64,000 nt of DNA from Octopus vulgaris. Lineage: Eukaryota. Numbering within the stretch: the first letter of the stretch is position 1; each line of letters starts with the position of its first letter. The translations under genes and the position numbers were made by a program. The notes under the pieces are model-generated. The model worked only from the letters and a program-made list of their open reading frames with translations, was not told the DNA's origin and made no database searches. The stretch covers positions 52,328,001-52,392,000 of the forward strand of contig OX597821.1 of the NCBI GenBank assembly GCA_951406725.2, given 5' to 3'. This document shows, piece after piece, positions 925 through 45,640 of this stretch.

Positions 925-1008
925 TAGATAATTTTCCATAGGATTCCAATAAATTTTAGTATCTTATATAAGGATAGAAAATATCGAAATCATTTCATAT
1001 TTATATAA

Positions 1009-1052
<44 letters not shown>

Positions 1053-1859
1053 ATTTCTATTAATATAGAATCATAGTTAGTTAGTAAATAGTGATTTAAT
1101 TTATTAATGAGTTAAATTAAAAGAATATGCTAGACATGATATTTACTAACTGTAAACACTGTAAGTATTACATCAGTTTTAAAATGTCGAGCAATCTTCA
1201 CCCACATATAGAATTTTTTAATTAAACGGACAATGCACATTCTTATACTTATTTCATTTGCCAACATTACAAAGAAGGTAGATATATAGACAGTGAGGTT
1301 AATTTCATCATTAAGAACATGGTGGTAGTATGTTCTTCTCCATCTGTAGATGTTTTTTTATCACTGAGTTCACTTTGTTATTTAGATCAATCATTGGGGA
1401 TGGGGTTTCTATTCTTGGTTCAATGGAGACAAACAAGAATTTTTTTCTATTTATAGATAGAGGAAGGGGTAGTACAAATGTCAAACCCATAAATCCATCC
1501 TCATTTTGGGGAATTTTGCTTAAACAAAAGCTAGTAGGCTGACGTTAGCGGGGTAGGGAGAATAGAGACTAATAATGCTTTAGAGGTTTTCAATGTCCCT
1601 TACCATTTAACAGCCAAAATTCCTGTATTGTGAATTTTAAATAAATATCCTTTAGATAATTTTCCATAGGATTCCAATAAATTTTAGTATCTTATATAAG
1701 GATAGAAAATATCGAAATCATTTCATATTTATATAAATATATATATATATATATATCCATTTCTATTAATATAGAATCATAGTTAGTTAGTAAATAGTGA
1801 TTTAATTTATTAATGAGTTAAATTAAAAGAATATGCTAGACATGATATTTACTAACTGT
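925..1859 (+). repeat. About 210-230 bp direct repeat (925-1153 and 1653-1859)
   Basis: tagataattttccataggattcc...catgatatttactaactgt occurs twice, differing mainly in internal (TA)n length. Confidence 0.95.
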
Positions 1860-4861: not shown

Positions 4862-4984
4862 CTGAAATAGAGAAATTAGAAAAAAGAAATATTATGTTGA
4901 GTTGAAATAAAGGGGTATAGTATTTAACATACTGAAATTCGAAGCAGTGGATTCGTATTTACTCCGAAATGTCAATTTATAAAC

Positions 4985-5315
4985 AATCCTTTTTATTAAA
5001 GGCACAAGGCCTGAAATTTTGGGGGAGGAGCCAAGTGAATTACATCAAACCCAGTGTTTCACTGGTACTTAATTTATCAACCCAGAAAGGATGAAAGGCA
5101 AAGTCGATCTTGGCGGAATATGAACTCAGAACGTAAAGACGGACGAAATGCCGCTAAGCATTTTGTCTGGCATGCTAACGATTCTGCTATCTCACCACCT
5201 TAATAATCCTTTCTACTATAAGTACAGGACCTGAAAGTTTTGGGGGAGGGGACTAGTCAATAACATCGACCCCAGTGTTTTGCTGGTACTTAATTTATCG
5301 AATCTAGCTCACCGC
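4985..5315 (-). mobile_element. SINE family A (octopus-type), one near-full copy plus an adjacent partial copy
   Basis: ggcaaagtcgatcttggcggaatatgaactcagaacgtaaagacggacgaaatgccgctaagc is shared with copies at 10755, 29092 and 41279. Confidence 0.85.
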
Positions 5316-5599
5316 GTTTCAATTTACATATAATACAAAACACGAAACAATACAAAAGAAAAAGTGAACCGCATTTTCGAAATCTATTGTTATATTTTAG
5401 GAAATATTGTTCTTGTTATATAGACTCAAATTTAATTATAATGAAAAGCGCTGAAGTCATGACCATTCTGACTTCTTAGGGCGTAATCTAAGACAAAATT
5501 TTCTACGGTTTCATTATTATATCAAGTGAGAAGTGTGTTTGAATTGATAGTGATTTGGCTGCTGTTTCTCTCAGAACAACCAACCACATAAAACCTGTT

Positions 5600-5740
5600 T
5601 GCTATGGTGTATAAAGTCACCAGATTGCTCTCCAACCACCTGATTCCCGATTCATTCCCACTGCGTGGCACCTTCTTCTATAACCTCGGAGCTGGTGAGT
5701 AGATTTGGTTGACGGAAACTGAGAGAAACCCGTCGTATAT
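5600..5740 (+). mobile_element. SINE family B, partial 5' copy
   Basis: cccactgcgtggcacc...gacggaaactgagagaaacccgtcgtatat resembles the 9244 copy. Confidence 0.7.
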
Positions 5741-7459
5741 ACGTTCCTTCAGACAAATTTCTTCACAAAGGTGTCTTGGGAAATAGTGTATGAACGCAGA
5801 CAGACTCAACGAGATAAGCAATAAAGGATGGATTCTATACAGAGCTACATGACGTGCTACAAAAAGCAGTTACATATTCAACTCTAATAAAAACGTAAAG
5901 TTACATTAGATAGGGTAGCCCTATATGTATTTTATTTAAAAAGAAAGAAAAAAAAACTGCATAGGACTTGACTCAAATGTCTAAAGTAAGCATTTACGGA
6001 TCGATAAAATATACGCTAGAAGGAAATTCGTGCTAGAATCAATTCGATTGACTTTGAAGGTAATGATCCAGCTTGGCTGCAGTGCAATTTTCGGGAAGAG
6101 TAAATGACTAACTCTGATGTGGTCTTCTAACTTCACTAGGTACGAGAAAAATTTCAAATTAACAAAAGAACATTCAATGTATGGTCAAATCTTTGCAGTG
6201 GCAATCTATTATTCTTGGATTCATTGAAAGCAGGGAAGAGTGAAAGATAGAATACTTTTGGTGATAAACAGGGCGGCGGTGTGGCTAAGAAACAGCAATA
6301 GTTGTAATAACAACAAGGATATCGGCATTAATAACAATAATAAAGCAACGCAGCACTAACATCAACCACAATAACATTTTCAACAGACATAATACAAAAA
6401 TAACAACAATAATAAGGAAACAATAACTGCAGCAAAAATAATTATGAGTTCACTTCGCAAATAATGCGCGGTTTGTTCCATAAAGAAAACTCGCAAACAA
6501 TACAATTCTCCCTGCGTTACACTTACATTATACATTTTTAGTCAGGTTTTCTTTTACATTTATTCACTAGAGTCCAGAAAAATATTGCTTTGGAACCATC
6601 TTGAAATCTATTAAAAGAGACATTCCAGGAATTGTATTTTCTAACATTTATTCAGATTACTCAATAAGGGACACGTATCTTATGTATCCCTATTTTTGTT
6701 GTTTTTCAGAATGGATTAGTCTCCCAGCAGGTGGCTATAATTTCTATAGCCCGTCAGAAGATAATTATCTACCTCTAACAGAAGCTATAAATCGAAGAGG
6801 AATGAAATAGAGGTTCCTGAAGCTTTCACTCTTATGAATTGTTCACATAACACAATGAATGTTTCTGTGGTGTGAATTGATGGGCTTCTCCAATAAATAA
6901 ATAAATAAATTCAAAATCAGTTTCGATGGAAAAGAAAATAGCTTTCAAAAGTTACTGATCCCTCACACTCAAGCCTGATTTAACTTTGTCATCGAGATCA
7001 ACATTAAACAATATAATTGCATAATCAGGTGCTGGCCGTATGGAACATGAGTCAACTACGGATTTACTGTGCATTTTTTCTCAGTCATTACGATAATGTT
7101 GTGAATAGTCGTGTTCATTATTATACATCAAGTTGATTACTCTCCAGTCACGAATCGGATAAGATGTGTTCGCCGAATATGTCTGACAGTATCAAAACAT
7201 GTCTCTTGCTGTCGCCTTTATTTGTCAATATCAGACTAAATTAGTATTAATCTTTGAGCCAATGATTTATCCCCGTATCACATAACTATAATTAACTATT
7301 AATCTTTAAATCTTGAACTATGACGTATTCTAATTAAAAACATCACTATAGACAGGGTGTCTGAGTTGTTAAATTTATGACGGAAATAAAGTCAATATAC
7401 TTCGTGTAAACTTGAAATACGGGTACAATTGAATACTTTTTAGAGCCAAAATTATGTTT

Positions 7460-7567
7460 AACTAGCAGTATCGCCCGGCGTTGCTCAGGTTTGTAAGGGA
7501 AATAACTATAAAGCATTTTTAGACACACAGAAACACGCACAGACAAACTGCCGTTTATATATAGAGA
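7460..7567 (+). mobile_element. Short non-autonomous helitron-like element
   Basis: Starts aactagcagtatcgcccggcgttgctc and ends cacagacaaactgccgtttatatatag, a layout typical of small invertebrate helitron-like elements. Confidence 0.5.
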
Positions 7568-7959
7568 ATAATTTATACATATTCTAATTTCCACAAATTC
7601 ATCACACCCTAAAGAAGGCCAACTAGCAAATTTTGAAAAGAGCCGTGGATATGCATGCCCCCCCCCCCCCCATGCCTGCTTCAGTTTTGCACTTTTGTTG
7701 CATTTAGGACAAACAAAATACTCGTCCTTACTGTTAGCATTAATCTGGTCTTTGTGAAATCAAATGACTTTTCAGACCCGCTAGACATCCATATACTTTG
7801 TCATACAATTGACGCAAAATGCTTGTAGATTGCTCAAGAGGGGTCTGTGCATAATCAGCCTGCAATTATTCGCCGTCATAAAATCCCATATGAATAACAA
7901 CTGCAGTTGTTAGAAACATGTTCGGGTTGAAAAGTGTTTTAGATTGAGGTCAAGTCTTG

Positions 7960-8640
7960 TTTATGAAGTGCTCAATTCTACGTGTTTCAATTACTTTATA
8001 ACCTTCGTGGATCTCTTCCTTCCAAACCGATTGACATCCCGTCATCTGTTTCCGGTCTTCAACATCCACACTAATAGTCGGAATGTAGTTTCTGAAGGGC
8101 ATCCCAAAACTATTTTTAGGGGTTAGTCTCGGACGTTTACCATGTTACAACTACTTAGGTAACCTACCATCCTCTGATTGCATATGAGGAATATCTCAAT
8201 AGTGATATGTTGGTATCTAGTGCTAGGAATATCTGAATAGTAATATATTTGTGTGTAGTGTTAGAGATTGCCATTTGATGTTCAGGATCCTTCATGGAAT
8301 CTTTCCAAGTCTTTGAAGCAGTGACGATTCGTAATCCAATTCTCTGAAGAATATGAAAGGACGATTCACAGACGTTGAACTTTGATTTGATGCTGATGCA
8401 TCTGTCAGACTATACACGATTTTCAAGATTTCCGAAAGCTAGCGAAAATACTGCCAAAGATATACGAAAGAGTCGACCACATCCAAAACTGAACCCTGGA
8501 GGAAGGTGTTTGGTTCGACATTGGAGTTAGAATGAACATGGCCTTTGTTTTCTTCAGATTGATGATAACTCCAAAGTCAATATATGCTCTACAGGAGAGA
8601 TCCGTCATAACCGTCCCATTTCCTTCTTTGTGATCTACGA
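7960..8640 (-). mobile_element. Degenerate RTE-clade LINE reverse transcriptase fragment
   Basis: ORF 8423-8608 'FGVIINLKKTKAM' resembles RTE 'FGL.IN.KKT.VM'; the rest is decayed. Confidence 0.6.
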
Positions 8641-9243
8641 TTCTGTATTCTCAGCGTAAAAAAACGCCCACGAACAAGGAGCTCACATGAGTTTCTTCGC
8701 CCTTCGACGGATTTTGGATTTCATCCTGCAGAATGACCAAACACACTCTGCTCACCAAATAAGTTCGGAGAGATTTAGTCACCGACAGCTAGACTATTTG
8801 ACAGGTTGTTCTGGGTTACATGTTACCAATTGCATTTGAAAATGATATAAAACGCGCACGTGCGCGGGTACACACTTGCACGCTCGCGCAGATACACGCG
8901 CGCACTCACACATACATTTGGAAAGAAATGAGACGGAGTGATTCAGCAACCTTAAGTTCGTAGATGAAAGGCGAAAAGTCTAACAATTAGAAATCCTGAA
9001 CTTTTTCTCAGAATGAACACAAAAAAAGTTTGATCGCCTAAGCACTTTGCAAGAAATTACAAACGAAGACCAACGTATAAAAACGTTGAATTCTCCCATC
9101 TTCACTCAAATTTTTTCTTGTTAGTAAGTCCAGAGATTGGGGAAGCTGTGATGTACATCACGTCTATTGGCCCGACTATTCCAAGAGGTGGAAAGAAAAA
9201 AAAGAAAAGCCCAAATACTTGACTGAAATTTTATTTATCGATC

Positions 9244-9405
9244 GCAGGAGTGGTTGTGTGGTAAGTAGCTTGCTTACCAACCACATGGTTCCAGGTTCTG
9301 TCCCACTGCATAGCACCTTGGGCAAGTGTCTTCTACTATAGCCTCGGGTCGACCAAAGCCTTGTGAGTGGATTTGGTAGACGGAAACTGAAGGAAGCCCG
9401 TCGTA

Positions 9406-9460
<55 letters not shown>

Positions 9461-9633
9461 CTTGACAATCGATGCTGGTATGTTTACGTCCCCGTAACTT
9501 AGCAGTTCGGCAAAAGAGAACGATAGAATAAGTACCCGGCTGACAAAGAATAAGTCCTGGGGTCGATTTTCTCGACTAAAGGCGGTGCTCAAGCATGGTC
9601 GCAGTCAAATGACTGAAACACGTAAAAGAGTAA
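9244..9633 (+). mobile_element. SINE family B (tRNA-derived, octopus OR-type-like), full length
   Basis: tRNA-like head ggagtggttgtgtggtaagtagcttgc...ggttctgtcccactgc, internal (TA)n, 3' end ...gcagtcaaatgactgaaaca; close to the 51875-52282 copy. Confidence 0.9.
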
Positions 9634-9907
9634 AGATCCTGAATAGTTGACAAAACCGATGAAGGTGGTATCTGAAATCAGAGTTCAAAAGATCGGAACA
9701 AATGCAAGAAATCTTATCCGGTACTCCGACTCTTCAACCAAGACATCATAATGACAGTTTACCAAACTGATTGGCAGGCCTTTACAAAAACATTTAACTT
9801 AGTTTTGTCTAACAGCGGAGACGCCCACTCACCTATATATTTTCTTCTATATTTTCAGGAGACATATAACTATAAGCTTGATTATACCGCATCTCCTAAA
9901 TTCTCCA

Positions 9908-9980
<73 letters not shown>

Positions 9981-10754
9981 ACACAAACATCACTGAGCTA
10001 TCACCATCATGTAATCTTTTTTTCTTAGCTATAACCATTTGAAACATTTCGCTGCATTTGATTTTCCTACTTATAGTAATTCGCGTCAGTGAAAACTAAA
10101 TATCCCAACCTTGCTCCTTGTAAGCTAGCAGGGTATGGAAACTGCAAATACCTACCGCAAATTCACGTCGAAAATAGGTAAACTAACCTATATAGAAAGT
10201 AATAACTAAAGAGCATTAGCCACGAACTATTGACAACAACAAGTAACTATTAGTAAGTCGTGTATTAAGATGTTAAGAAGGATAGCATGTGATGTTTTAA
10301 TTAAGATCTCAGTAATGAGCAAAATATTAAAATATCACATAAAACATTGGCGTGTTATCTATAATCACAGAATCTAATTAACACATGCGATAAAATTCTA
10401 GAAAATTCTTCGACAAAACACTTATTATATGCAAAATATTTTATTAGCTGTAAAAGCAAATAAAAACTCAACAGCTAGCGCTAGGTTATGACCAGTTTTA
10501 TTAATAACTCGTATGGAGAGCTAAAACCTCGTATGTTCATATGAAATTTATAAATGTCACCATTTCAAGAGGCCTCAGTTTATAGTTAATAAAAACGGCC
10601 AAAGTGTAATAAACATGTATTTATATATGCAACGAAGATTTGTACTTTACAAATGTTTATTGCAGACAGTTTGGCGGTTAATTACCTGTTAGTACAATAC
10701 GAGTTTTAAGTTTAGTTTATTTTCTTTCTCAATCGTGTTGTTAGAGTGTTAATA

Positions 10755-10980
10755 CTGGTTTCAAAGTTTGACACAAGACGGGCAGGTTTGTGGGGAGGGG
10801 CTAAATCGATAAAAGTGACCACAGTTTTCAACTGATACTTATTTTATCCATCTCTGGAAATTAAAAGGCAAAGACAACCTCAGCGGAATTTGAAAGGATC
10901 TCACTCAGAATGTAAAGACGGACGAAATCACTCTAAGCACTTCGCCCGGCGTGCTAACGATTCTGGCAACTCAGCGCCTT
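10755..10980 (-). mobile_element. SINE family A with probable target-site duplication
   Basis: Family A body flanked by ttagagtgttaata / ttagagagttaata. Confidence 0.8.
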
Positions 10981-11196
10981 TTAGAGAGTTAATATTAAAA
11001 ATATTTTGTAGCATTTAGTTACGGCTCTTCTTGTTCTGAATTCAAATTACATCGATATCAACTTTGCCTTTTATTCTTCCTGTACCGATGACATAAATTC
11101 CGCTAAATTTGCGGCCATGTCTCTATACCAGAAGTCAACATTTGTATCGATGTCGGAATTCTATAAATCATAGAATGGAAATCTTTCACTATTTAG

Positions 11197-11262
<66 letters not shown>

Positions 11263-12546
11263 ACACACACACACACGCAATTGCACATGAACCATTACAG
11301 TAGCAGGGTCTTGGCATCACCATCTACTATTCTTTCTCTAATGGTTTTTCTCGTGTTCCTTCAGTTTCGTACACACATGATGGAGCAGCAGTTATACATA
11401 GATTCCTTAAGTTAGTGTAAGATCTGCATGCAATAATTATTTCTCTAGCACTGGGTGAGTATTTAAATTTATTGATCCTAAAAAGATTAAAAGTAGGAAT
11501 AGCTTCAACAGGATTTGTTTTCTGCGCACCAAGAATAAACATGAATATTGTATGACACTTATTTTTCGTACTTGTAAACCAATAAAAAATAATGCCCCAG
11601 TGACGCATAGGATCGGTTAAAATAGTCTTGATTTCTGAAAATACAGCTGAACTAGCTTCACTGAAAGGAAAAGCAAAATATATATCATGGAACGGTTAAC
11701 GTTATTCTTAATGTAGTCTTCGGTAGTTTATACTTTTCTTTACAATACGACTTAAAAATAATATTTCTTCTTTTGCGAACTTTCAGCATTAGAGATTATT
11801 TTAGAGTAGGAAGTAGTAAACAATTGCCATTTGTTTTTGACTTGAATCATAATTTCTTGATGGACATAAAGCTGCTCATGAATACACCCTAAACTCTGTC
11901 TCCTATAAACCTGTTCTCTTCCCTGCACACTTCCCCTCTAATATAGTGACCGAATTACTTGAAACTGGTTGAACTCGACTCTGTCCATTCAGACTCTTCA
12001 CACTCGTCTCCCTCTCCCGAATCCCGTTTCCTCCATCGTCTACATCTATCATTAACCTCCTCATATTATCTCCCTTTTCCGCTCTATCTCTGTCCATGAT
12101 ATTTTTATTGCAGCTGCAGGAAACTTACGAATTCAATTATTTACTTCAAAACAGAAGAAGAATCCCAGTACATGCACTCAAAAAGTTACAATAATAATAA
12201 TAAATGGCACACTAACTATACAACTATCTACATGTTTCAGTAATTTAAAAACATGTTATCACCATGTATTGTTTACTTCTATTAAAGCACGAAAAACTAT
12301 TGGACACTGCTAAAAGAGATTCAAATGTTTCTACATTTGCTGTTCCATGCTGCTATGTCATCTCTCCATGATCGATGGAAGAGGGAAAGAGAAGGGAGGT
12401 GTAAGAAAGATCGAGAAAAAGAAGGAAAGTGTAAGAAAGAGAGAGAAAGAGTAGAAACGGAAGAGGAAAAAAGATAGAGAGATAACGGGAGGGAGTAATT
12501 CAGATTGCTTTGTCAAATATTGCAAATATAGAGAGGAAGCCAATGA

Positions 12547-12588
<42 letters not shown>

Positions 12589-13067
12589 AAGAAGGAGAGA
12601 GCGAGTGAGGGAAACAGAAAGAGCGTGTGTGTGCATGTGCATGTGTGTGTGTGTGTGTGTGCGAGAGAGAGGGAGAGAGAGAGAAAGAGAGCGGTTGCAG
12701 CTTGCTATGAAACCTTATAGATATTTAGTGTCAGATGAAATGAAGCACTTTTCTGATGATGAACATAACTATCTACATTTACTGCTATTCTCAAATGTAA
12801 GATAGTATTAGTTTGCGAAATGAGCGAGGTCCCCCCCGATGATTATAAATGAGATACAGTTGAAGGTGACGAAGAAGTATATTTATTATCGTCCTCAGAA
12901 TATCTTTGACATGCAGCAACTCACAATGATAGGCTTGCAAATCTCCCAGTTAGCTTTCGTTACTCTGTGAACTTTTGTTGACAGGAAGTATGTAAAATAG
13001 CGCGGACAGCAACAGATAAAATATTTGCCATCTCCCCTGGTTACAGAAAATACTGTGGACTCTATCT

Positions 13068-13445
13068 TTTATCGTTTACTTGCTTTAGTCATTGGACTGC
13101 AGCCATGCTAGGGCGTCCTTTTGAAGGATTCAGTCAAACAAGCTAACCTCGGTGCGTATACTTTTCCTCATACTTATTCTATCGATCTATAGTGCTGAAA
13201 TGCTAAATTATAGGGATGTAAACAAACAAAGGAAAACACAAAGAGACATACACACATCCACTTGATACCTTCCCCGTGAAACATATATGTGACGGCTTCT
13301 TTCAGTTTCCGTCAATCGAATTCTACTGACAAAGGTTTGGCCGGCACGAAGCTATAGCAGAAGTCACTTGCCCAAGCCGTCACACTGTGGAAATGAACCC
13401 GGAACTATGCAAATGGGTAGCAAACTTCTTATCATATTGCAGCCC
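13068..13445 (-). mobile_element. SINE family B, diverged
   Basis: Reverse-complement similarity to 9244-9633 over its full length. Confidence 0.75.
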
Positions 13446-13627
13446 TTGTGAAACAGTAACTAAAATATAGTGGACAACGAAAGTCTATATACTATTTCGT
13501 GGTTAGATTTCATACTAACAAATAATGTCTGAAAATAAAATGGCCAAACAAACATGGGTTAAATATTTGGTCATATTACAAATGTCGTATAACTGATGTA
13601 CAAAATTGCCACAACATTACATAATTT

Positions 13628-13679
<52 letters not shown>

Positions 13680-14477
13680 CAGTAGTAGTAGTAGACCACA
13701 GTCGATTAAATTGACCTAAGAGCATGACTTGATGCTATGCTTTATTTTATCATTTACGAAAGAAGAAAGACAAAGTTCACCTCGACGCCATTTGAATTCA
13801 GAACTTAGTGACATAACCGAATTACTGCTCGCCTGTTATTCTGTTGTCTACCGACCCTGCACTTGTTTCAATTGCTATCAGTGTTACTACAATAGTTTCT
13901 CTACAGCAATTAATCCACTATAACCACGACAACGACGACGACGACGAGGACCACCACCACTACCATTACTACTTCTAATACTAATACGGAATACGGAATT
14001 GAAATCACTGCATAATCGTTAGAGGCGGACAAAATGACGAGGCTATGAAAGTAACACTTTTAGAAATAGCACTGATTCCACTGAACTCTCGCTCTTCAAA
14101 ACGCATCAAGATAAATAAATTTGTAAATTATTAGCGTCAGGCCTTGTTGTGGTGGTCTGGGTGAACAAACTTCGACAGGCGAGCTCCATTAGTTTTATGT
14201 AAATGTTTTTGGCTAAGAGACCTCTTCCATTTCTCCCATTATTTTTTTCTTTCGTTTCTTTTTTGTTTCAAACATTTACGAGTAAGTGACACCTGAGGAT
14301 GCCTTTTTTGTGTTGAAGAACTCTAGTTGAATTATTTTCAATTTCTGCGTTTCTGTTTATTTGTTTTCTCAGTTCTCATTATTTTTGTATTTTCGAATAA
14401 ACGGACTTTTGAAATATTGCTCAGTTTAATAAGAAAATGAACGACGTCAGTTTCTTCTATTATATATCCCACCATTC

Positions 14478-14662
<185 letters not shown>

Positions 14663-14819
14663 CCTGCTGCAGAACACATCGGACGTGTTTTTCGAACGCT
14701 CCAAGTGAGTTCATTTCAAAATATTTATTTACACCAAGTTTGGTGTCCTTTTGTAACAATTTTTTTTATTCCAAGTTGTAAATAGAAGCAACATTACATT
14801 TTTTTTCTATGGTTGTGAT

Positions 14820-16570
14820 GTCCCCCCTGGGGCCTGCAGAACTATAAAATAAATTCGGTGGGCGTTAAAATTTAATGGAATCAATACAACCTAACAAGAT
14901 AGCGGAGCGCGTCTTGAAAGACTTGAGGAAAAACAAAACGAACCCTCCTACAAATGTGGTAACGGATGAAGACTTCCTCCCTTCCCTCTGTCATGGGAAG
15001 GGGAGAAGGAGAAAAACAAGATTGTCATGGTATAAAGTACAACGAACAATAGTAGCAGAAACACTAACAGTGGTAGAAATGACAACAGCAGCAGCCGCAA
15101 CATTGAGAGCAACCGCAATAGTAGTTGTGGTTGGAGCAGCAACAACCACGAAAAAGAAAGCAGCAGCACTGGCAGTAGCGATAGCTAGAATAATAACAAC
15201 AACAGCGAGAGCAAAAATGACGACAACAACAATAAAACCAATACCAGCATCATCGATAAGAACGACGGTAATAAGGGCAGCAGCAGCAGCAACATTGACA
15301 ACAACAAAAACAGCAACGAAGATAATACAAATAAAAATATCAAGAATAGTTTTGCAGCAGAAGCAGCAGTCAATACCAAACACCTATGTACCGTAGACCT
15401 CACAATTAGGGAGCAGATGCGCATAGCGGCATGGAAACTAATTAAACAAAAGAACAATTGGGCATGTCTAACGATCCCATCAGAGGCAAATGAAGCAGTG
15501 GAGAGGAGAACGGTATTTTTCAGATGCATCTCAGCAGGCACAAAAAGAGTGGCTTTGATAGCCCAAGTAGATACTGAGGCGGCGCTGAGGTGCCTAAGAA
15601 ATTACATCGAATACATAACGAGGGGCAAACAATACGGCACCATTTCGGTGGTGTTAAAATCAGAAGCACTCGCTGTGAAACATTCAATGACCCCTGCAAA
15701 ACCAGCAAAGTCATCATGTACCCCTCCCACATGGGGAAATATACAGCCTGTGTCCGTATTTCGAAAATCCCCTCCAGGACTAGATATTTGGTGGCTTTTG
15801 GGATGCGTAATCGTGGAGGGGACGGATACTGTCCCTATAGAGGCGACAAGAACTGCCAGGGAGGACTGAACAGGGGTTGACCTGGAGATACTTCTCCAGA
15901 TTAGACCCGAAAGCATTAAAAAATCCCAGACCACATCCCTCTCCATAACGGGACGGTGATACATATCATAACTGAGGACAAAAGGCCTCATTGTTTCAGG
16001 TGTGGAGAAACAACTTATTTGGCTGCCCGCTGCCGCCTACGGCCTCCACTGCTGCCTACGCCGAGACGAGAACCAGAAACATCACCAGCACCAGCAACAA
16101 CACCAAAGACATTAACCATCCTAGGGGGAAACAAGGAAAGCTCTCCTACCCTCTCACACCAAACAAAAATACACACATAAACAAGATTATAAACAAACAC
16201 ATAGACACAGACCCTTACAGTAGTGGAGATGAAGGAAAAATGAAGGGGCCAAAAAACAAACAAACAAACAAAAAAACAAAAAAACAAAAGAGAAAGTACA
16301 AAAGAAAAACTCCACAAAGCATAACAACACCCTTAATCAAAAATACAATCACTACCCACGGAAACATCTCCCCCAAAACACCAACACAAATACAACCAAC
16401 ACAATCACCAGAATCCCCCAAGCGCAAATAACCTAAACAGGAACAGACACTGACACAAATATCTAAAACTGCAAACCCCACACTCACAGCACACACATAA
16501 ACAACAGAAACAACAACACCACCGCTACAGTCAAGAAAACAAATTAAACATCACCAGCACAAAACACTCA
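14820..16570 (+). mobile_element. LINE ORF1 (gag-like, L1/Tx1-type) remnant
   Basis: Frameshifted ORFs 14875-16180 ending in 'ITEDKRPHCFRCGETTYLAARC', a CX2CX4(H>Y)X4C zinc knuckle, followed by a P/T/K-rich tail. Confidence 0.6.
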
Positions 16571-16589
16571 ACTTCGTACTTATCAAAAG

Positions 16590-17825
16590 GGACAATGAGG
16601 TTCTACATTTTGCCAATTTCTATTTCGAGATCTTTATACTTGCTCATTTTTTGGTAGGTCTTGACAGATATATTTATGTCGATTGGGACAGTTATATCAA
16701 TGAGGACGCATGGTTTTTGCCAGAAGTCCTTCAATATAATGTCTGACCAATTCGCATCTATCTTTCTGTCAGTTTGAACGTGAAGTTTCAGAGGAGTGAG
16801 AAGTGATCATTTTCAAGCACTGGAAGTGGTTTGTGTTCCCAACAGTTTTTTCCAGGTCAAGGTTTTGCAAATTACCCAGTGAATATACTATGCTGTTCTA
16901 TCATGCCTGTTGAGATACTCTGTAGGCGCAAGAAAACTGCACATGGAGACAATGTGATCAATGGTTTCATTTTCTTGTTTACATACATGGCACGTTGGGC
17001 TACTGCCGTTCTTTAATATTTTGGCCTGGTAACTCCTTGTAGGTAGGCATTGATCTTGGCCTGCTGTGATAAACATTTCTGTTTCTAATTTAAAGCCAGA
17101 ACACACTAGCCATTGGTGGATTATGGCTTTGTCAACATCGGCATTATTCGTTCTCTTTGGATATTTGCCATTGAGAGGGTTTTCTTGCAATGTATCAGTA
17201 AGAATATCTAAGGCAGCAGTTTTAGCACGGGTTTTCATACACTTAGCTTTTTCTGTGCTTGTTTCCAGTACGTCTAATTCTGGGACTTGTATTTGGAGTC
17301 CCCTTAGGTATTCATTTGCCTGTTTTATTACTGAGTATGATGCTTTCTTGTTTTCGTGCTTTAAGACAAGTTTGAATATCCAGTCCTCAGAGGTTTTCAG
17401 GTAGGTGTTTAGGCCAACTGTGGAAATCGTCATTGTTAATTTCATTTCTAAAAGTCCACGGCCAACCTCTTTTCATGGCAGGCAAAATCGTTCTATATCT
17501 ACCTTAGGGTCGTGCATTCTATTGATTATCAACAAGTTTCGTATTTTCTGTCAAGATTACATATTTCGGTAATTGACCAGTTAATGATATTGAAACTGTA
17601 AGTCACGACCGGTATGGTTAACGTATTGATCGCTTCGATCCTGTTTCTTGCATTTAGTTCTGTCTTGAGTATTGCTCTCACCCTGCGATAACATTCTCTC
17701 CTGATCCTTGAACATTCCTGGTCATTGAATGTTTGATTCTATCACCTTCGAATACCCCCTAGGTATTTGTATCTATCCGCTGGTTCTAACTCTTTATGAC
17801 CTTCTGCTTGACAAGATTAACGTTA
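16590..17825 (-). mobile_element. R4/Dong-type (RLE clade) non-LTR retrotransposon 3' fragment
   Basis: ORF 16888-17445: ETEMFITAGQDQCLPTR...CHVCKQENETIDHIVSMC...EYLNRHD (CCHC plus RHD); a decayed PD-like motif 'NWSDIILKD' lies downstream. Confidence 0.85.
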
Positions 17826-17950
17826 CGTTCTTAGCTCAAATTCCGCCGAGGTCAACGATTAAATAAGTACCAGTTAATCCCTGGGGGTCGATGTAATCGA
17901 CTTATTCCCCTTGTCTGTCCCCTCTAAGTTTAGCTCCCTGTGGGCAATAC
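17826..17950 (+). mobile_element. SINE family A partial copy
   Basis: caaattccgccgaggtcaac...taagtaccagt...ggggtcgatgtaatcgactt. Confidence 0.75.
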
Positions 17951-17976
17951 ATAAATAAATAAATAAATACATAAAT

Positions 17977-18044
<68 letters not shown>

Positions 18045-18970
18045 TTAATAATAATTATTATTTTTATTATGATTAATATTATCGTGTTCTCCCTCCTCCA
18101 GTCCATTATCATCGACATTGTTGTTATTGTTTGTCATGAATGGTAGCTACTTAAGAAAAATTACCGAATGAAAAGAAATGAAAGTATTCTCTTGTTCGTT
18201 TTGCCAACGAAAATGTTTGGGGATATTGAAATGTCAACGTCATTTCTTATGGTGGGAAAACCATGTTGTTTGCTTAAACATTAATTTCAACTTGTTTATA
18301 CTTTGCCACGGTATCTAAATGTGTTTATTCTAGGTTCAAAATGGCCATCTCTCTTACAGTGGAAAGAATTGCTAGTCTTAATGGTGGCAATAGTCTCAAC
18401 ACAGGGGAAAAAAAAAAAAGAAAATCGAAATGTTGCAAATACAAATTGTTTGTATTTCAACGACATTATGTAAAACTAACACCATCACCAGCGTCACTAC
18501 CACCATTAGAAACATTCCCAGAAGGCAATAACATCACCACAAACAGTAGCATCACCATCATCAGCATCGGAGCCACACCCCATTCTCATCACTAACAGCA
18601 AGAACTACAGCTACGAATGTTTAACTAGAGTTAGGGATTAAAGGGAGTGTATGATGCAAAAAAAAAATAAATATATTTCGAGAAAGAAATTGGAAAATTT
18701 CTCAGAAATTTTATGGAAGTAAGGGGATAGAAAGTGACGCCACATCAGAGACTCGACAGCTGGAGGATTATCACGTAGAAGATATGAGAGTTTCCACGGC
18801 TCAACAAAATCCAGCTTTGTCGTAGAAGTGGAAATTGATCGGGAATTTGAGGGTGCTCGCATTCCAAATGGATACTGATTTTTTTCCCATTTTGTTTGTA
18901 GGCGCCTATATGTTTGTGTTATAAACTTACAATATCCTTTAATGCTTCGGGTTAGGTTTCTTGTCACCCC

Positions 18971-19058
<88 letters not shown>

Positions 19059-19302
19059 GCCAGCTCGCCGGCATTGGTTGGTCAAATATCAACACCTTCG
19101 GTATTATGACAGTATATAATATATATATCCTTTACGTTTTATCTTTTTTTTTATTCATTTGACTGCACCCATGCTGGGGTACCGCCTTGAGGACGCTCAG
19201 TCGAAGGAATCGATACCAGTACTTCTTTTTATAACATGGTACTCATTCTACTCGTGACTTTTCCGGAACAGCTAAGTTACGGACCCGTAAATACACCATC
19301 AG

Positions 19303-19389
<87 letters not shown>

Positions 19390-19399
19390 TGTATGTATG

Positions 19400-19444
<45 letters not shown>

Positions 19445-19469
19445 TTCATTTTAAGCAGCAGAAAATTCA

Positions 19470-19521
19470 ACAAAATCTGTTACTCTGAGTTTCTCGTTGC
19501 CGTTCATCAGACAGTTTTTGC
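19470..19521 (-). ncRNA. Minimal type I hammerhead motif (left arm)
   Basis: Reverse complement of 21792-21842. Confidence 0.72.
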
Positions 19522-20521
19522 TAGAATGGAACATATATATTAATTCAATCTATACTCTTACAAACGCTACACCTTTAAAAAGAAATGGACTTGTTTGATT
19601 GGCCCTTTAGAAAAAACGGTCAATCTTCGAGCGATAAACAAAAAGGTCAAAAATATATGTATATATATATAAAAAACTTATAAAATTATAAAATCCGAGG
19701 AAAAAACCGAGGAAAAAACCTATTGCCGTTAATGAAGACAGTACAAATTAATGCATAGAAATTAAACCTGTTATAAATACTGCAATACATATTTATATTA
19801 AAATCCACATATATATATCAACATACACAAAAGGATGCGCGTAAACGCCATACATACATATACAGACGTATGAATATGAATCTAAATTATACACATAAAA
19901 GCATGTGTACATATATTCACGCAAACCGTCTCGCACGCAAGCTAAAATTCATCTATGTAGCAATTCTCATATACTGAGCAAGGAGGGGGAACGAAAGAAA
20001 GGGAAATAGAGAAAAAAGAAACGAAGGAGGGGTGGGGAAAACTTGTAGCGATATTATTGACATCTATAGAGGCCAGTATACATACACAAGTTTGAATTGA
20101 TACATATACATACCGTCGTGTGTATGCGTGCTTAAGCACAAGCATACTTTCACTTACACATACACAGATGCGCATGCTTACAAATATATATGCTTTGCTA
20201 TATACAAACTTATATAAACATTCTAAATTTGACAACATTGCTTTTTTTAAAAAAAACATTGCTTTTAAAAAATGGGTGCATTAATAAAAATATATACGAA
20301 AGACATATAAAATAAAATATAACATCCTATTTTGGGTCATTTATAAATAATCAAGGTAATATAAATAATCAAGGTAATCTTATGCAATACAATAACATGA
20401 AAACAAAGTTTGTAGGTTTTTCCTAATATATATGTAGAAACAATAAGACTTTGCTATAGGTCCGTCGTAGCGCTCAAGAGTCAAAATCAAAATCAAAAAA
20501 TCAAAATACAAAATATATACT

Positions 20522-20689
20522 CTATCCATATGGTATATTTATATTCGACATTTTAAATTTAGCCGTGTGCCTACATAAGTTCATTAATTCACTTCTTTGA
20601 TTCAAAGAATTATTGTCCATGAATAATATGTGCATTTTTTCAAGTAAGCAGAGCCTGCACTTGAAATTATATTTGTAAGCTCCATGCCT
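20522..20689 (-). pseudogene. C-terminus of a Penelope-like GIY-YIG endonuclease (Naiad-like)
   Basis: RHGAYKYNFKCRLCLLEKMHILFMDNNSLNQRSELMNLCRHTAKFKMSNINIPYG* carries the PLE 'CxLCxxEK...LNxRxE...CRH' signature and reads through the spacer into the left arm. Confidence 0.85.
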
Positions 20690-21791
20690 GTATGGACAAT
20701 AATTCTTTGAATCAAAGAAGTGAATTAATGAACTTATGTAGGCACACGGCTAAATTTAAAATGTCGAATATAAATATACCATATGGATAGAGTATATATT
20801 TTGTATTTTGATTTTTTGATTTTGATTTTGACTCTTGAGCGCTACGACGGACCTATAGCAAAGTCTTATTGTTTCTACATATATATTAGGAAAAACCTAC
20901 AAACTTTGTTTTCATGTTATTGTATTGCATAAGATTACCTTGATTATTTATATTACCTTGATTATTTATAAATGACCCAAAATAGGATGTTATATTTTAT
21001 TTTATATGTCTTTCGTATATATTTTTATTAATGCACCCATTTTTTAAAAGCAATGTTTTTTTTTAAAAAATCAATATTGTCAAATTTAGAATGTTTATAT
21101 AAGTTTGTATATAGCAAAGCATTATATATTTGTAAGCATGCGCATCTGTGTATGTGTAAGTGAAAGTATGCTTGTGCTTAAGCACGCATACACACGACGG
21201 TATGTATATGTATCAATTCAAACTTGTGTATGTATACTGGCCTCTATAGATGTCAATGATATCGCTACAAGTTTTCCCCACCCCTCCTTCGTTTCTTTTT
21301 TCTCTATTTCCCTTTCTTTCGTTCCCCCTCCTTGCTCAGTATATGAGAATTGCTACATAGATGAATTTTAGCTTGCGTGCGAGACGGTTTGCGTGAATAT
21401 ATGTACACATGCTTTTATGTGTATAATTTAGATTCATATTCATACGTCTGTATATGTATGTATGGCGTTTACGCGCATCCTTTTGTGTATGTTGATATAT
21501 ATATGTGGATTTTAATATAAATATGTATTGCAGTATTTATAACAGGTTTAATTTCTATGCATTAATTTGTACTGTCTTCATTAACGGCAATAGGTTTTTT
21601 CCTCGGTTTTTTCCTCGGATTTTATAATTTTATAAGTTTTTTATATATATATACATATATTTTTGACCTTTTTGTTTATCGCTCGAAGATTGACCGTTTT
21701 TTCTAAAGGGCCAATCAAACAAGTCCATTTCTTTTTAAAGGTGTAGCGTTTGTAAGAGTATAGATTGAATTAATATATATGTTCCATTCTA

Positions 21792-21842
21792 GCAAAAACT
21801 GTCTGATGAACGGCAACGAGAAACTCAGAGTAACAGATTTTG
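21792..21842 (+). ncRNA. Minimal type I hammerhead motif (right arm)
   Basis: GCAAAAACTGT-CTGATGA-A-CG-GCAA-CG-A-GAAA-CTC-A-GAG-TA-ACAGATTTTG: stem I CTGT/ACAG (extendable), GNRA-capped mini stem II, near-palindromic stem III. Confidence 0.72.
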
Positions 21843-21938
21843 TTGAATTTTCTGCTGCTTAAAATAAAGCATATTACTCTACCACTGGTATTTGAGTACT
21901 CTTTTTTCCACCTTGTTTCACATTTATGTGTTTACTCC

Positions 21939-22019
<81 letters not shown>

Positions 22020-22689
22020 ATATATATATGTACATACACACAGATTGAGAGAAAGTCAAAGAGAGAGAGACAATATCAATATATGTCTATCTATCTATCT
22101 ATCTATCTACCCATCCATTTCATGGAAAAAATTGTATGACACGTTTAGTAGTAAATGTCTAGGGTCTTGTGGCCGATAACCAATGACGAAATAATACTTT
22201 CTTTACTGTTATTGTTACTGTTGTTGCTAGATCATCATCATCATCATCATCATCGCGCTCGTCATCGTCGTCGTTGTTAACGTCATCATCATCGTCCCCA
22301 TCATCGTCGACGTCGGTATCGTCGTCGCCATCATCATCATCATCTTCAGTCGCAGTAGGAACAACAGTAAAAGTAGAAGTGGTAGTAGTGGTGGTTGCTA
22401 TCTTATATGAAATAATATAAACCGTCGCCTTTCGGTAAACGACTGTCTCAAACAGGCGTATAATCAAACAACAAAGAATAGAACGAAAGACAAAGCGTAC
22501 AGAGGAAGAGAATTATCAGAAAACCTCAAGTAGATGCATTCGTGCTTTCATTCTTTGATCTGCCAAGTCTTAGAAATAATCTGTAATTATTCTAAGACTT
22601 TCTCAAACACAATCAAAGTCATTTCATGGGAAATTAAAGTATAAAATTATAGAGCATGTATAATAACATTTGTTGATATATAGATATGA

Positions 22690-22693
22690 ATGA

Positions 22694-22773
<80 letters not shown>

Positions 22774-22914
22774 GTATATGTATATGAATGTATGTATATA
22801 TATATATGTATATATAAATATATATATGTATATACATATATGTATATATATATATATATGTGTGTATATATATATGTATATATATGTATATATGTATATG
22901 TATAAATATATATG

Positions 22915-22946
<32 letters not shown>

Positions 22947-23110
22947 TATATACAAATATATACATATATATATATATATACAAATATATACATATATATA
23001 TATACATACACATATACACACACACATATATTTTATATATATATATATATACATATTTATACATACGTATACATATGTATATATACACATATATATATAA
23101 TATGTGTGTA
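22690..23110. repeat. Degenerate (TA)n/(TG)n/(CA)n microsatellite block
   Basis: Direct reading. Confidence 0.95.
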
Positions 23111-24603
23111 GACATATATAATATATCCACACACATTGACCTAGGTACTGACATATAAGCATTTCATCTGATGCATACATAATATAAACCCACATTCCCA
23201 CATTTATTTAAGATTATCTATGTATATATGAGCAGATATATAATTAGACTTTTCTGTAAGATATAATTTGAGCACAAGTTGTTTAAGACGTTTACATTGC
23301 ATTTTACAGATATAGTTTTGGAGTTCATATATATATATATATATATATATGAAAACGGTTTACAATAGGAAAACAAAAGACCGACATAGCTGACTCCAAG
23401 ACGCCGCTTCATATCTCCTTTTTATAATTGTGGTTTACTTCTGCAACAGTTTATATCAGGTCTTAGATGAACATAGCCAGTGTTCGTTTTATTAGTATCC
23501 AACAAACGTGTGTATGGTTTGTTTATATACAGCCATAATACCCAAGGTGTTGATATTTAACCAACCAATGCCGGCGAGCTGGTAGAATCGATAGCCCGTC
23601 AGGCAAAATGCTTAGTAGTATCGATATTTAACCAGCTAAACACATACAGTTAATCATATACCTAGAAATAAATTATCGACTCAGTAAACAGTCTCTCTAA
23701 CAGCTAGAAATAGCAGGGAATCTTGCTTAAATAGCATCCTATTTTCGGGATATGTAATTACATATTGGATGTATCTCTAGATATGCAATACCTGTAAAAA
23801 TGGTGAAATGGTCACGGTTGAACCTACGTCTGCTCGATCAAGCCAATCTCACTTAGACAACAGCAACAATATCATGAATCAGAACATCATCAAACAACAA
23901 CAAAGTTAACGTTATTAACTACATCATCATCATCAACAGCGACAACAGCAATCACAACATAAAATGCTGACGAGCCAACATGGAAACCCCTGCTCAGTAG
24001 TCCAAATATTACTAAAAGTATCAGCCAAATCTCTCAGAAATTGTAGGTATTCTATATTAAAAAATTAAGGTAAGGTTGATTATATTATCAAATATATAGT
24101 ATGCCCGAACAAAAAAAGACGGTATGGTCAAAGGTAGAGTGTCTTTGGACAAAGGGAAAACAAAACCCGGGCCAATTTGGAGCTAAACAATTATATAACG
24201 ATAAAAATAATAGTAATTAAATGTTGGTTTGGAAAAGCTTTTACGACAGAACAAATAATCGTAGACCACTTGTCGGCTGTTTCGACTGTCCCAAAGAATA
24301 TCTTTTAGCTCTATATTTGCATACTGCTATTTATAGCTTTATATGTGATTCGAGATCTATTAAAAGAAAAAAGAACAAAATTCACATTCTTTTGAAATCT
24401 TATAAAATCCTTATAGTTCTTCTCCACTTACCCCCCAAACCCTGTATTAAATATTTTCCCCAGCTGTTCATTTCGAAAACTACAATATCCACTGAATTCC
24501 TTATTTTTCCATGCAATCATTAATCTACGACAGTTTAATCTGGATATCAGTTCAATCGAGCTGACATAACGTATTAATTATTGTGTAATGCATAGATACT
24601 TAC

Positions 24604-37249: not shown

Positions 37250-39387
37250 ACATTTGTCGTCATCGTGTTTGTTGTTAACACAACGTTTCGGCTAATATAC
37301 CCTCTAGCTTCATGAGGAAATTTCTTTGGGGAAATTTCGAACCTGGGCTCTCATTCTTTAAGTATTTTTCGATGTTGTTGTTATTATTATCATCAAGGTC
37401 ACTTCCTGGAATCGAACTCGGAATCTTGGGGTTAGTAGCCCGCGCTCTTAACCACTACGCCTTATGCCCGTAGGCAATTATGGAATGAATTTTAGGGCTT
37501 ACAAATCTATTATTTTCCTATCCTTCCTTAATACCAGTTCCCATATGCTATTCATATCTGCACTCGGCCTGCGTAAGAGGTTGATGTGTTCTAGTATATG
37601 TGCTGCTTCTTTTACTTTTCGTATTTTTGCAGTGGTGTTCTCCGTCTATTATTTTAACTTCATCCCAAAGGGAGAAGTGGTCTCCATTTCATCTATACAT
37701 GATAAGCTATGCCTGAGTTATCAACATTTCCTTGTGTTACTGCTTTGCGACGTTCGTCTACACTTATCAATGAGTGGGGGTGGCATGTTTCACCTTTGTA
37801 TAACCTACCACAGCTGCATGGAATGGCGCATACGCAGTCTTTGGTCATATTCTCTTCTATTGGTGGAAATATTTGCAAATTGTATTACTCTTGAATACTT
37901 TCCTGATGTCATATGGGCCGCATGTCTTTTGTATCTTTTCGAAGAGGCCTTTCACATAGGGTAGACAGACTTTGGACAGTTTATTGGTTTCATCCTACCT
38001 TTTCTTCATAATTGGAGTGAATAGTATGCTTTCGGGGTAGATGTTGCTTAATATATTGTTATTGAGCTTGATAATCTCTTCGTGGTGTGTATCACGATTG
38101 CTACTTATATTCTTTGCACGATGTTTTAGGCCTGAACAACCCCACTCTTTACACTGTATGGATGGTGGGAATTGAAGATGAGGTATCGGCCAGTGAAGGT
38201 CGGCTTGCGGTATACGGATGTCCTGAATCCATACATGCTGCGTTATTAATACGTCCAGGAATGCTAGATGATTGTCTTTTACCTTTTCCATTGCAAACTG
38301 TATGGATGGCTTTATTGAGTTCACATGATCTAACATCACTTGGAAAATCTTCCTGGTGGGGCCAGAGTATAAAGGTGTCATCAACATATCGTAGCCATAG
38401 TGTTGGTTTCCAATTATGAAGAAGAGAGAGGATAGGATTGGTTTTAGTCGTGTTGATACTAAAGCCAAATTCTCAAATTATTCCATGTATATATTGGCTA
38501 TTATCGGTGATAATGGCGAACCCATAGCTAAACCCTCTTGTTGTCGATATATACCAGTGCCTATACTGAAGTAGGTAGTTTCTACAAAGAAGGTCTACAT
38601 TTCTATCAGGTTTCTTATTGGTATACTAGTGCATTCTTTTTGATGGGTGTCTGTCACTAGTTTTCTTGGATCACCGATAGTGCTTCACCTGTTGGGTAGT
38701 GAACAGATTTATCACATCTAGACTCACCATCTGGTTAGATTCAATGGTACTATCCTTGATCAATTCTGTGAAGTAGGTGGAATTCTTCCCGTACGATGTT
38801 GACTTTCCTGATTATATCCACAAGGAAGCGGCTCAGTGAATGACACGCTGAACTTTTACAGCTCATTATAGGTCTTAATGGAATCCTTGTGAATCTTAGG
38901 GAGAGCGTACATGTGTGGTAGTTTAATGTAGTGTTGAGTCAGTAGTCTGTACTTCATTGGTGTAAAATGATTCTTGTTCTTGATCAAGATCTGTGACAAC
39001 TTCCTCTCTGTTTTCAGAGTTGGGTCTTTATTTTCTTTGCTCTAGCTACCATATCTTATAAGACTTGCCAATTTTTCAGAGTAATCAGACTTGTTCATCA
39101 CGACTGTAACATTTACCTTGTCTGCTAGAAGTGTTATGATAGAATTGTCACTCTGTAGTCTTTTGAGAGCGAAATTTTCTTCCTTAGTGATGTTTGGTTC
39201 GGGAAGTTTCGATTTTTCTAGTACCTGTTTCACTTTCCACCTTAGTTCATCTCCCTGAGCTTTTGGTATCTTTATGGCTATCTCTTCAATAGGGACTATT
39301 ATGTCCAAGTATGGAATGCGCTTGATTGTTGTCGCAAAGTACATAATGTAAATAATGTACATAATTCCTCATCGCTTAAATATAGAA

Positions 39388-42784: not shown

Positions 42785-42793
42785 TAAGTATAA

Positions 42794-42876
<83 letters not shown>

Positions 42877-42904
42877 TTTGATTTTGTTGATCGCACAGCA
42901 TAGT

Positions 42905-43678: not shown

Positions 43679-45640
<1,962 letters not shown>

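What the first reader, a model, noticed from the sequence alone, without database searches (positions are those of the whole stretch)
19448..21865. 2.4-kb palindrome made from a PLE 3' end, with outward-facing twin hammerheads
Seen: arms of about 1.17 kb with only a handful of differences and a 71-nt spacer. The spacer plus left arm encodes the GIY-YIG C-terminus. Each arm ends in a hammerhead, so a transcript from either strand contains one ribozyme and can fold into a >1.1-kb hairpin. Established: PLE insertions often carry an inverted pLTR at the 5' truncation. Inference: a recent insertion. In the host pre-mRNA it would be a strong ADAR/Dicer substrate, and full pairing would mask the ribozyme. 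It is also a potential cruciform or fragile site.
Basis: partly seen in the sequence, partly recalled or inferred. Interest (0 to 1): 0.72.

Follow-up and report, generated by a model that had tools for sequence, protein, structure and literature searches.

The report
Two-ended Hydra-clade Penelope insertion palindrome
This 2.5-kb mirror-image stretch in an intron of an octopus receptor gene is one of many hundreds of young, head-to-head double insertions of a Penelope-like jumping gene; the shape is already known, but its two halves stop at two different fixed points, which likely means both cut DNA strands started copying the same RNA.

Summary
The palindrome is in the sequence as described. 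It is a young insertion of a Hydra-clade Penelope-like element (PLE) into (TA)n, inside a ~20-kb intron of a receptor guanylyl cyclase gene. The family has an intact 711-aa ORF (telomerase-like fold) and about 1,700 copies of each of two fixed 3' ends, A and B. Simple outward pairs are A+B in 59 of 61 cases. Here each arm holds element sequence that the other lacks, so neither is a plain copy of the other. Arms nearly always share one source haplotype (381 of 386 sites), and joins are rich in microhomology. Best model: priming from both nicked strands on one uncleaved RNA, then end joining. A two-base change that perfects the stem is unique to this locus and hints at hairpin-templated repair, snap-back or a polishing error. 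The hammerheads are Hydra-type motifs, predicted to be masked. Editing, small RNAs and read support were not shown. The architecture is published, and this scan reached the same two-strand priming model on other DNA.

The parts
19444..21940 (.). Whole insertion unit: two head-to-head, 5'-truncated 3' ends of a Hydra-clade PLE, ends facing outward
19444..20695 (-). Left arm: end of ORF, about 1.08-kb 3' UTR and hammerhead; stops at fixed end A (no tail); reaches 1253 nt into the element
20695..21869 (+). Right arm, part shared with the left arm; reaches 1175 nt into the element; 1-nt microhomology at 20695
21870..21940 (+). One-sided 71-nt tail up to fixed end B; in tandem copies the same sequence lies between the pLTR and the ORF start
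20621..20691 (-). 71-nt spacer: element coding sequence present only in the left arm
20522..20695 (-). 57 codons plus stop: C-terminus of the endonuclease domain (CxxC, E, LNxRSE, CxH); no start codon context, presumed untranslated
20618..20619 (+). Two adjacent substitutions in the left arm that make it complementary to 20693-20694; found once in the genome
21792..21844 (+). Type I hammerhead motif (core 21803-21809, GAAA 21820-21823, predicted cut after 21832); antisense to the host gene
19469..19521 (-). Type I hammerhead motif (core from 19510, predicted cut after 19481); this copy is on the host pre-mRNA strand, in the arm transcribed second
19305..19443 (.). Left target flank, (TA)n/(TATG)n microsatellite
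21941..22030 (.). Right target flank, (TA)n microsatellite; no target-site duplication can be read
4874..24603 (-). Host intron (about 19.7 kb; limits approximate, from tblastn) between two consecutive coding exons of an ANPR1-like receptor guanylyl cyclase

Best explanation
It is a young, non-coding, head-to-head double insertion of the 3' end of a Hydra-clade Penelope-like element in a TA repeat within a host intron, likely made when both nicked target strands primed reverse transcription on one uncleaved element RNA at two fixed sites 71-73 nt apart and the two unfinished cDNAs were joined end to end. Shown: identity, clade motifs, target, two fixed ends, the A+B pairing rule, independent truncation of the arms, one haplotype per unit, microhomology and templated inserts at the joins. 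Inferred: nicking of both strands, use of one RNA, joining by microhomology-mediated repair. In the host pre-mRNA the arms are predicted to pair into a ~1.17-kb duplex that hides the one sense hammerhead and would be an editing substrate; the locus is most likely a neutral passenger.
For: Family: >=40 copies 98-99% identical; intact 711-aa ORFs in L021, L023, L031; best fold matches are telomerase RTs; Hydra motifs. Ends: 1,749 exact A ends and 1,629 tail-type matches. On C1 up to 177 Mb, 58 of 61 simple outward pairs are A+B, 59 after reading the variant tail of L060 (binomial p 8e-16). Of 66 fetched two-ended loci (partly picked as pairs): 62 A+B, 1 A+A, 2 B+B, 1 internal tandem junction. 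The tail-less arm is longer at the 5' side in 18 of 60, shorter in 21, within 10 nt in 21; in those 18, this locus included, neither arm contains the other. L105 and L040 have an inverted piece made of tail only, L028 of tail plus 5 nt. Arms agree at 381 of 386 diagnostic sites, against 146 disagreements expected at random. The rare alleles shared by L022's arms recur together in sibling L198, so they came from the source. 27 of 44 insert-free joins have >=2 nt microhomology against 18% simulated, and 16 of 60 have inserts, several copied from nearby element sequence. In vitro, anole PAc cleaves and extends both strands, starts at two RNA sites that bound the tail, and uses uncleaved RNA (PMC11167929).
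Against: No intermediate was observed. The stem-perfecting doublet (20618-20619) and an allele found only in this locus's two arms (20007/21306) are not explained by two independent cDNAs and need hairpin-templated repair, snap-back or an assembly error. PAc showed no difference in start site between strands, which does not by itself predict a strict A+B rule. 61 of 124 clusters on C1 had no partner by exact pattern; a partner was visible in only 8 of 20 such loci fetched, plus L101 through the longer L081. L024's arms differ at two family polymorphisms, so two templates occur at times. Real microhomology was measured with an aligner and the control by exact extension, which may inflate the excess.
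Confidence: 0.7

Rival explanations
1. Hybrid snap-back: both strands prime, but only one cDNA is long. Its 3' end (20695) folds back on 20617-20620, copies itself to make the right arm, and anneals to a short cDNA primed at B that supplies the tail. Mismatch repair in the hairpin perfects the stem.
For: Explains the doublet at 20618-20619 and the allele shared only by these two arms. Short fold-back inserts occur at the joins of L070, L038 and L078, and tail-only arms exist.
Against: A stem-perfecting change was seen in 1 of 42 loci tested. The 7 loci with identical arms carry 0 shared private alleles in 5,165 nt, against 3.8 expected if these were errors copied at birth (p about 0.02). Shared rare alleles at L022 are source-inherited.
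Confidence: 0.17
2. Plain self-priming (the published reading of PLE palindromes): one strand folds back and is copied, so one arm is a copy of the other.
For: Proposed for Adineta elements (PMC3846280 Discussion); arms share haplotypes.
Against: Here the left arm alone has the 71-nt spacer and the right arm alone has the 71-nt tail; the same holds in 18 of 60 loci. It does not predict A+B pairing or tail-only arms.
Confidence: 0.03
3. Assembly or fold-back read artefact, either of the whole palindrome or only of the fine differences (doublet, shared allele) through consensus polishing between near-identical arms.
For: Near-identical arms invite mis-mapping of short reads; the doublet sits exactly where reads from the other arm would overhang.
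Against: The flanks differ, the arms stop at element-defined ends, each arm has unique sequence, 6 differences remain, and about 60 other loci show the same rule with different joins. I put the whole-locus artefact at about 0.04 and a polishing origin of the doublet alone at about 0.25.
Confidence: 0.04
4. A selected regulatory hairpin or ribozyme switch in the guanylyl cyclase intron.
For: It lies in a transcribed intron; young repeats are the main editing targets across animals (PMC9989829 passages).
Against: Very young (3 of 1154 sites from other copies), one of hundreds of like units, about 2.7 kb and 14.6 kb from the nearest coding exons; the hammerhead is predicted to be masked and has no sense partner.
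Confidence: 0.04
5. Two separate insertions into the same TA repeat.
For: The family targets (TA)n and is abundant; L091 (A+A, diverged arms) may be such a case.
Against: No host DNA between the arms, a 1-nt microhomology join, the same haplotype, and a chance of about 0.01 of a neighbour within 10 kb.
Confidence: 0.01

Closest known systems
Hydra clade of C-terminal-endonuclease PLEs (Craig et al. 2021, PMC8557442; section 11, passages and supplement part 2 seen), including Hydra-1_Obim of Octopus bimaculoides and Penelope-13_HM
   Same: RWK, DKT, no CCHH, CxxC and CxH around E and N, (TA)n target, type I hammerhead. Penelope-13_HM is listed with a 966-nt 5'-truncated inverted copy at its 5' end. 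The hammerhead's stems I and III match Hydra-2_aMil.
   Different: A different family from Hydra-1_Obim (other hammerhead; protein homologous but not the same, compared by eye). Unit of 3.35 kb with a 1.08-kb 3' UTR against <3 kb. About 1,700 young ends. The second cysteine of the linker is Phe in most copies sampled.
EN+ PLE insertion units with an inverted truncated copy and a one-sided tail (Adineta Pen2a, PMC3846280, passages and Discussion seen; Fig. 2 legend of PMC8557442)
   Same: Head-to-head inverted copy at the 5' truncation, tail at one end only, partial tandems.
   Different: Tail of 71-73 nt rather than 30-40. The paper reads the palindromes as self-priming, which does not fit units where each arm has unique sequence.
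PAc, Poseidon of Anolis carolinensis (Frangieh et al. 2024, PMC11167929; parts 1-2 of 4 seen)
   Same: Two reverse-transcription start sites bounding the tail, AT-rich target, both strands cut and extended, uncleaved RNA as template.
   Different: Another clade. The parts read give no account of inverted units or of a one-A-one-B rule. The start sites here lie upstream of the ORF start, not inside the ORF.
Minimal type I hammerheads of metazoan PLEs (Cervera and de la Pena 2014, PMC4209133; part 1 of 4 and passages seen)
   Same: Short near-palindromic helix III, thought to act as a dimer, weak in vitro; pairs on opposite strands 100-700 bp apart already noted in Schistosoma.
   Different: Stem II has only 2 bp, closed by an A.A pair not seen among 66 sense motifs in relatives (U.U in 27, G-C in 22); spacing here is 2.3 kb.
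LINE-1 twin priming (recalled, no call)
   Same: Both target strands prime on one RNA, giving an inversion joined by microhomology.
   Different: In L1 the second primer anneals internally and the two parts do not overlap; here both start at fixed sites near the 3' end and copy the same sequence, giving a palindrome.

Membership tests
Penelope-like elements, EN+ | Single ORF with telomerase-like reverse transcriptase | tested here: met
   711-aa ORF with YRDD; model pLDDT 86; best PDB matches are TERT (E 4.9e-9). Pfam gave no match.
Penelope-like elements, EN+ | C-terminal GIY-YIG endonuclease | tested here: inconclusive
   VVY(581)...YTG(598), R, E673 and N686 are conserved in the alignment and fit the Hydra description, but no Pfam or fold match to GIY-YIG was obtained; one relative carries PF01541.
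Penelope-like elements, EN+ | pLTR from partial tandems, inverted truncated copy, one-sided tail | tested here: met
   L021 and L023 are partial tandems; inverted copies and tail in about 60 loci.
Hydra clade | RWK motif and DKG changed to DKT | tested here: met
   RWK at 37, DKT at 113.
Hydra clade | [quoted passage not shown] | tested here: met
   CRLC at 667, CRH at 695; the last two lie in the window's peptide.
Hydra clade | CxCX5C linker | tested here: met
   Intact in 11 loci including full-length L031; second Cys is Phe in 29 loci, L024 has both. The window does not reach this position.
Hydra clade | Insertion into (TA)n | tested here: met
   Both flanks here and nearly all ends listed.
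Hydra clade | Length under 3 kb | tested here: not met
   Unit of 3,353 nt because of a long 3' UTR. The paper says 'generally short', so this is descriptive, not diagnostic.
Hydra clade | Placement in the Hydra clade of an RT phylogeny | not tested
   No tree built; published Hydra proteins were compared by eye only.
Type I hammerhead ribozyme | Conserved core with stems I-III and an NUH cut site | tested here: met
   Core, 4-bp plus extended stem I, 2-bp stem II, near-palindromic stem III, GUA site; same layout with varied stems on the sense strand in 52 of 77 related loci. No Rfam match.
Type I hammerhead ribozyme | Self-cleavage | not testable with these tools
   No assay. 1 of 40 short arms ends near the predicted cut, and both arms here run through it.
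MITE or self-contained fold-back element | Copies share one fixed internal junction | tested here: not met
   Joins differ from locus to locus and units range from about 120 bp to 7.6 kb.

The most novel reading that the evidence does not exclude
The family is a genomic record that Penelope inverted units are built by obligatory two-strand priming at two fixed RNA sites, one site per strand, on a single uncleaved RNA, with microhomology joining of the two cDNAs; this would replace self-priming as the explanation of PLE palindromes and tails. This locus would also record hairpin-templated repair between the arms in the germ line.
Probability: 0.55. Interest if true: 0.6.

Novelty: new member of a known kind. 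Interest (0 to 1): 0.36.

Why it matters
The locus itself is an ordinary passenger. The family matters because how PLEs make inverted units and one-sided tails is stated as open (PMC8557442), and this young family gives a sharp rule (one end A, one end B, one source haplotype) plus intact 711-aa ORFs with which to test it in vitro for a clade with no biochemistry in the papers I read. It also implies hundreds of near-perfect duplexes in octopus introns, a likely load for RNA editing.

Tried and rejected
Rfam at gathering score and at E<=10: no hammerhead. Pfam on the ORF, the peptide and 20 aligned proteins: no relevant family. PDB by sequence: nothing significant. Sequencing runs: no RNA holder listed on record, so nothing on expression, editing or small RNAs. 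Contigs of 6 runs laid on the centre: none bridged the 20695 join or carried the doublet; contigs drop rare variants and this is no evidence either way. Pile-up of 5' ends at the hammerhead cut: 1 of 40 short arms; the commonest stop is 81 nt from end A (9 of 40), at a 4-nt palindrome. A-to-G excess among alleles shared by both arms: 8 of 38 against 14 of 122, p 0.18. Correlation of arm lengths: rho 0.21, p 0.21, n 39. Correlation of shared with arm-specific changes: rho 0.32, p 0.10, n 28. Siblings of this locus: the 20170 allele occurs in 4 other places, on other haplotypes in the three loci read, and the 20007 allele nowhere else; L025's tested allele recurs on another background. Stable hairpins at ends A and B: z -1.06, not significant. 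Target-site duplication: unreadable in (TA)n. Literature searches listed no paper whose title or abstract start proposes two-strand priming for Penelope palindromes; the library lacks most subscription papers, and supplements of PMC11167929 were not read.

Full report
Observation. The arms (19448-20620, 20692-21865) and the 71-nt spacer are there, with four substitutions and one indel. Comparison with other copies moves the limits: the unit runs 19444-21940 between TA repeats. The left arm stops at a fixed end A; the right arm passes the same point (21869) and continues for 71 nt to a fixed end B. The spacer and left arm give 57 codons and a stop on the minus strand.

Identity. The genome (G000, 2.8 Gb) holds at least 40 copies 98-99% identical to the centre of the feature. 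L021, L023 and L031 carry an intact 711-aa ORF. Pfam and PDB sequence searches found nothing, but 1,063 relatives were found among 7,996 candidates, and the predicted structure (pLDDT 86) matches telomerase RTs best. The motifs match the description of the Hydra clade in PMC8557442 section 11: RWK, DKT, no CCHH, CxxC and CxH, CxCX5C linker, (TA)n target. The linker is intact in 11 loci and has Phe for the second Cys in 29. The paper's supplement lists another octopus family, Hydra-1_Obim, and a Hydra element with a 966-nt inverted copy at its 5' end. No tree was built.

Host. tblastn places four exons of an ANPR1-like receptor guanylyl cyclase on the minus strand of the window (63464-63321, 61526-61440, about 24747-24604, 4873-4778). 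The best named match, 100% over the stretch aligned, is an Octopus vulgaris protein. The gene spans about 0.9 Mb. The palindrome lies in the intron 4874-24603.

Hammerheads. Rfam misses them. The same layout with varied stems sits on the sense strand in 52 of 77 related metagenome loci and in the published Hydra list, where Hydra-2_aMil has the same stems I and III. The A.A pair closing stem II was not seen among 66 sense motifs in relatives; U.U is the commonest there (27). Such motifs are thought to work as dimers and are weak in vitro (PMC4209133). The two here are on opposite strands. On the host strand the motif is in the arm transcribed second, and pairing with the first arm is predicted to win by about 100 kcal/mol. 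Both arms run through the predicted cut, so the template RNA was uncleaved, as for PAc in vitro. Only 1 of 40 short arms ends near the cut.

Family rule. Exact patterns give 1,749 A ends and 1,629 tail-type matches, the latter including internal tandem junctions. Only the first 100 places of each were listed. On C1 up to 177 Mb, 100 A and 90 B places form 124 clusters: 58 A+B outward pairs, 1 apparent A+A, 2 B+B, 2 complex and 61 single. Reading showed the A+A to be A+B with a variant tail and one B+B to be an internal junction. About 39 of the pairs are small units with ends under 220 bp apart; the rest reach 7.5 kb. Of 20 singles fetched, 8 showed a partner in the stretch taken. Among 66 fetched two-ended loci, partly chosen as pairs, 62 are A+B, 1 A+A, 2 B+B and 1 internal.

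Mechanism. In 18 of 60 A+B loci, this one included, the tail-less arm reaches further into the element than the tailed arm, so neither arm can be a copy of the other. In L105 and L040 the inverted piece is tail only, and in L028 tail plus 5 nt. This argues against plain self-priming, the reading in PMC3846280, and for priming from both target strands, which PAc does in vitro at two sites bounding its tail. Arms agree at 381 of 386 diagnostic sites; the rare alleles of L022 recur together in a sibling locus, so one source supplied both arms. L024 is an exception with two templates. Joins show >=2 nt microhomology in 27 of 44 (18% simulated) and inserts in 16 of 60, several templated from nearby. 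This fits end joining of two 3' single-stranded tails (inference from known microhomology-mediated repair, recalled). The nicking of both strands, the single RNA and the repair pathway are inferred.

What does not fit. Two adjacent substitutions at 20618-20619 make the left arm complementary to the end of the spacer. They occur once in the genome, and such a change was seen in 1 of 42 loci. The allele at 20007/21306 is found only in these two arms. Either a hairpin formed and was repaired after insertion, or this unit arose by snap-back plus a short second cDNA, or polishing mixed the arms. The loci with identical arms have no shared private alleles in 5,165 nt, which weighs against errors copied at birth. 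Contigs of public runs could not settle it.

Age and effect. The nearest other copies differ at 3 of 1154 sites and the arms at about 0.5%: a young insertion. Young repeats are the main A-to-I targets across animals (PMC9989829 passages), so editing is plausible but untested. Nothing points to selection on this locus.

Verdict. Present as described, a new family of a known clade in a published architecture. The one-A-one-B rule is a useful lead on an open mechanism; I did not find it in the listed searches, but earlier notes of this scan report the same model in this and other genomes. I had formed the reading before opening them. Interest 0.36.

Noticed in passing
G000:C12:28.43-28.61 Mb: About ten long, intron-less matches to the kinase-like and cyclase part of the guanylyl cyclase lie in a cluster, most in open frames of 1,400-1,760 aa, some with stops; possibly an expanded retrocopy family.
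   Followed up: no
family ORF codon 564 (L023, L031 and others): The second Cys of the CxCX5C linker, proposed to aid (TA)n targeting, is Phe in 29 of 39 loci sampled, on more than one haplotype background, and these copies still sit in (TA)n.
   Followed up: partly
L068, L095: Both arms stop at exactly the same element position (599/599 and 1428/1428) with an inserted centre, as if both ran off one broken RNA end.
   Followed up: no
L032:521-5293: A B+B pair lies inside a larger inverted duplication that includes flanking DNA, with identical arms; a secondary rearrangement or an assembly fold-back.
   Followed up: no
L041-L061: Small units of about 120-270 bp are the commonest size class; their arms stop mostly 64-83 nt upstream of end A, just below a TATA-like stretch, suggesting run-off at the RNA 5' end.
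   Followed up: partly
window 37995-39368 (-): Broken frames with YVDD and a DK(V)N motif: remains of another, older Penelope-type element (label recalled from motifs).
   Followed up: no
window 44344-45290 (-), 16888-17472 (-), 42678-43420, 48370-48831, 55662-55943: Fragments that look like LINE reverse transcriptases and Tc1/mariner transposases (labels recalled from motifs).
   Followed up: no
window 969-1097 and 1699-1801: A near-identical direct repeat about 730 nt apart.
   Followed up: no
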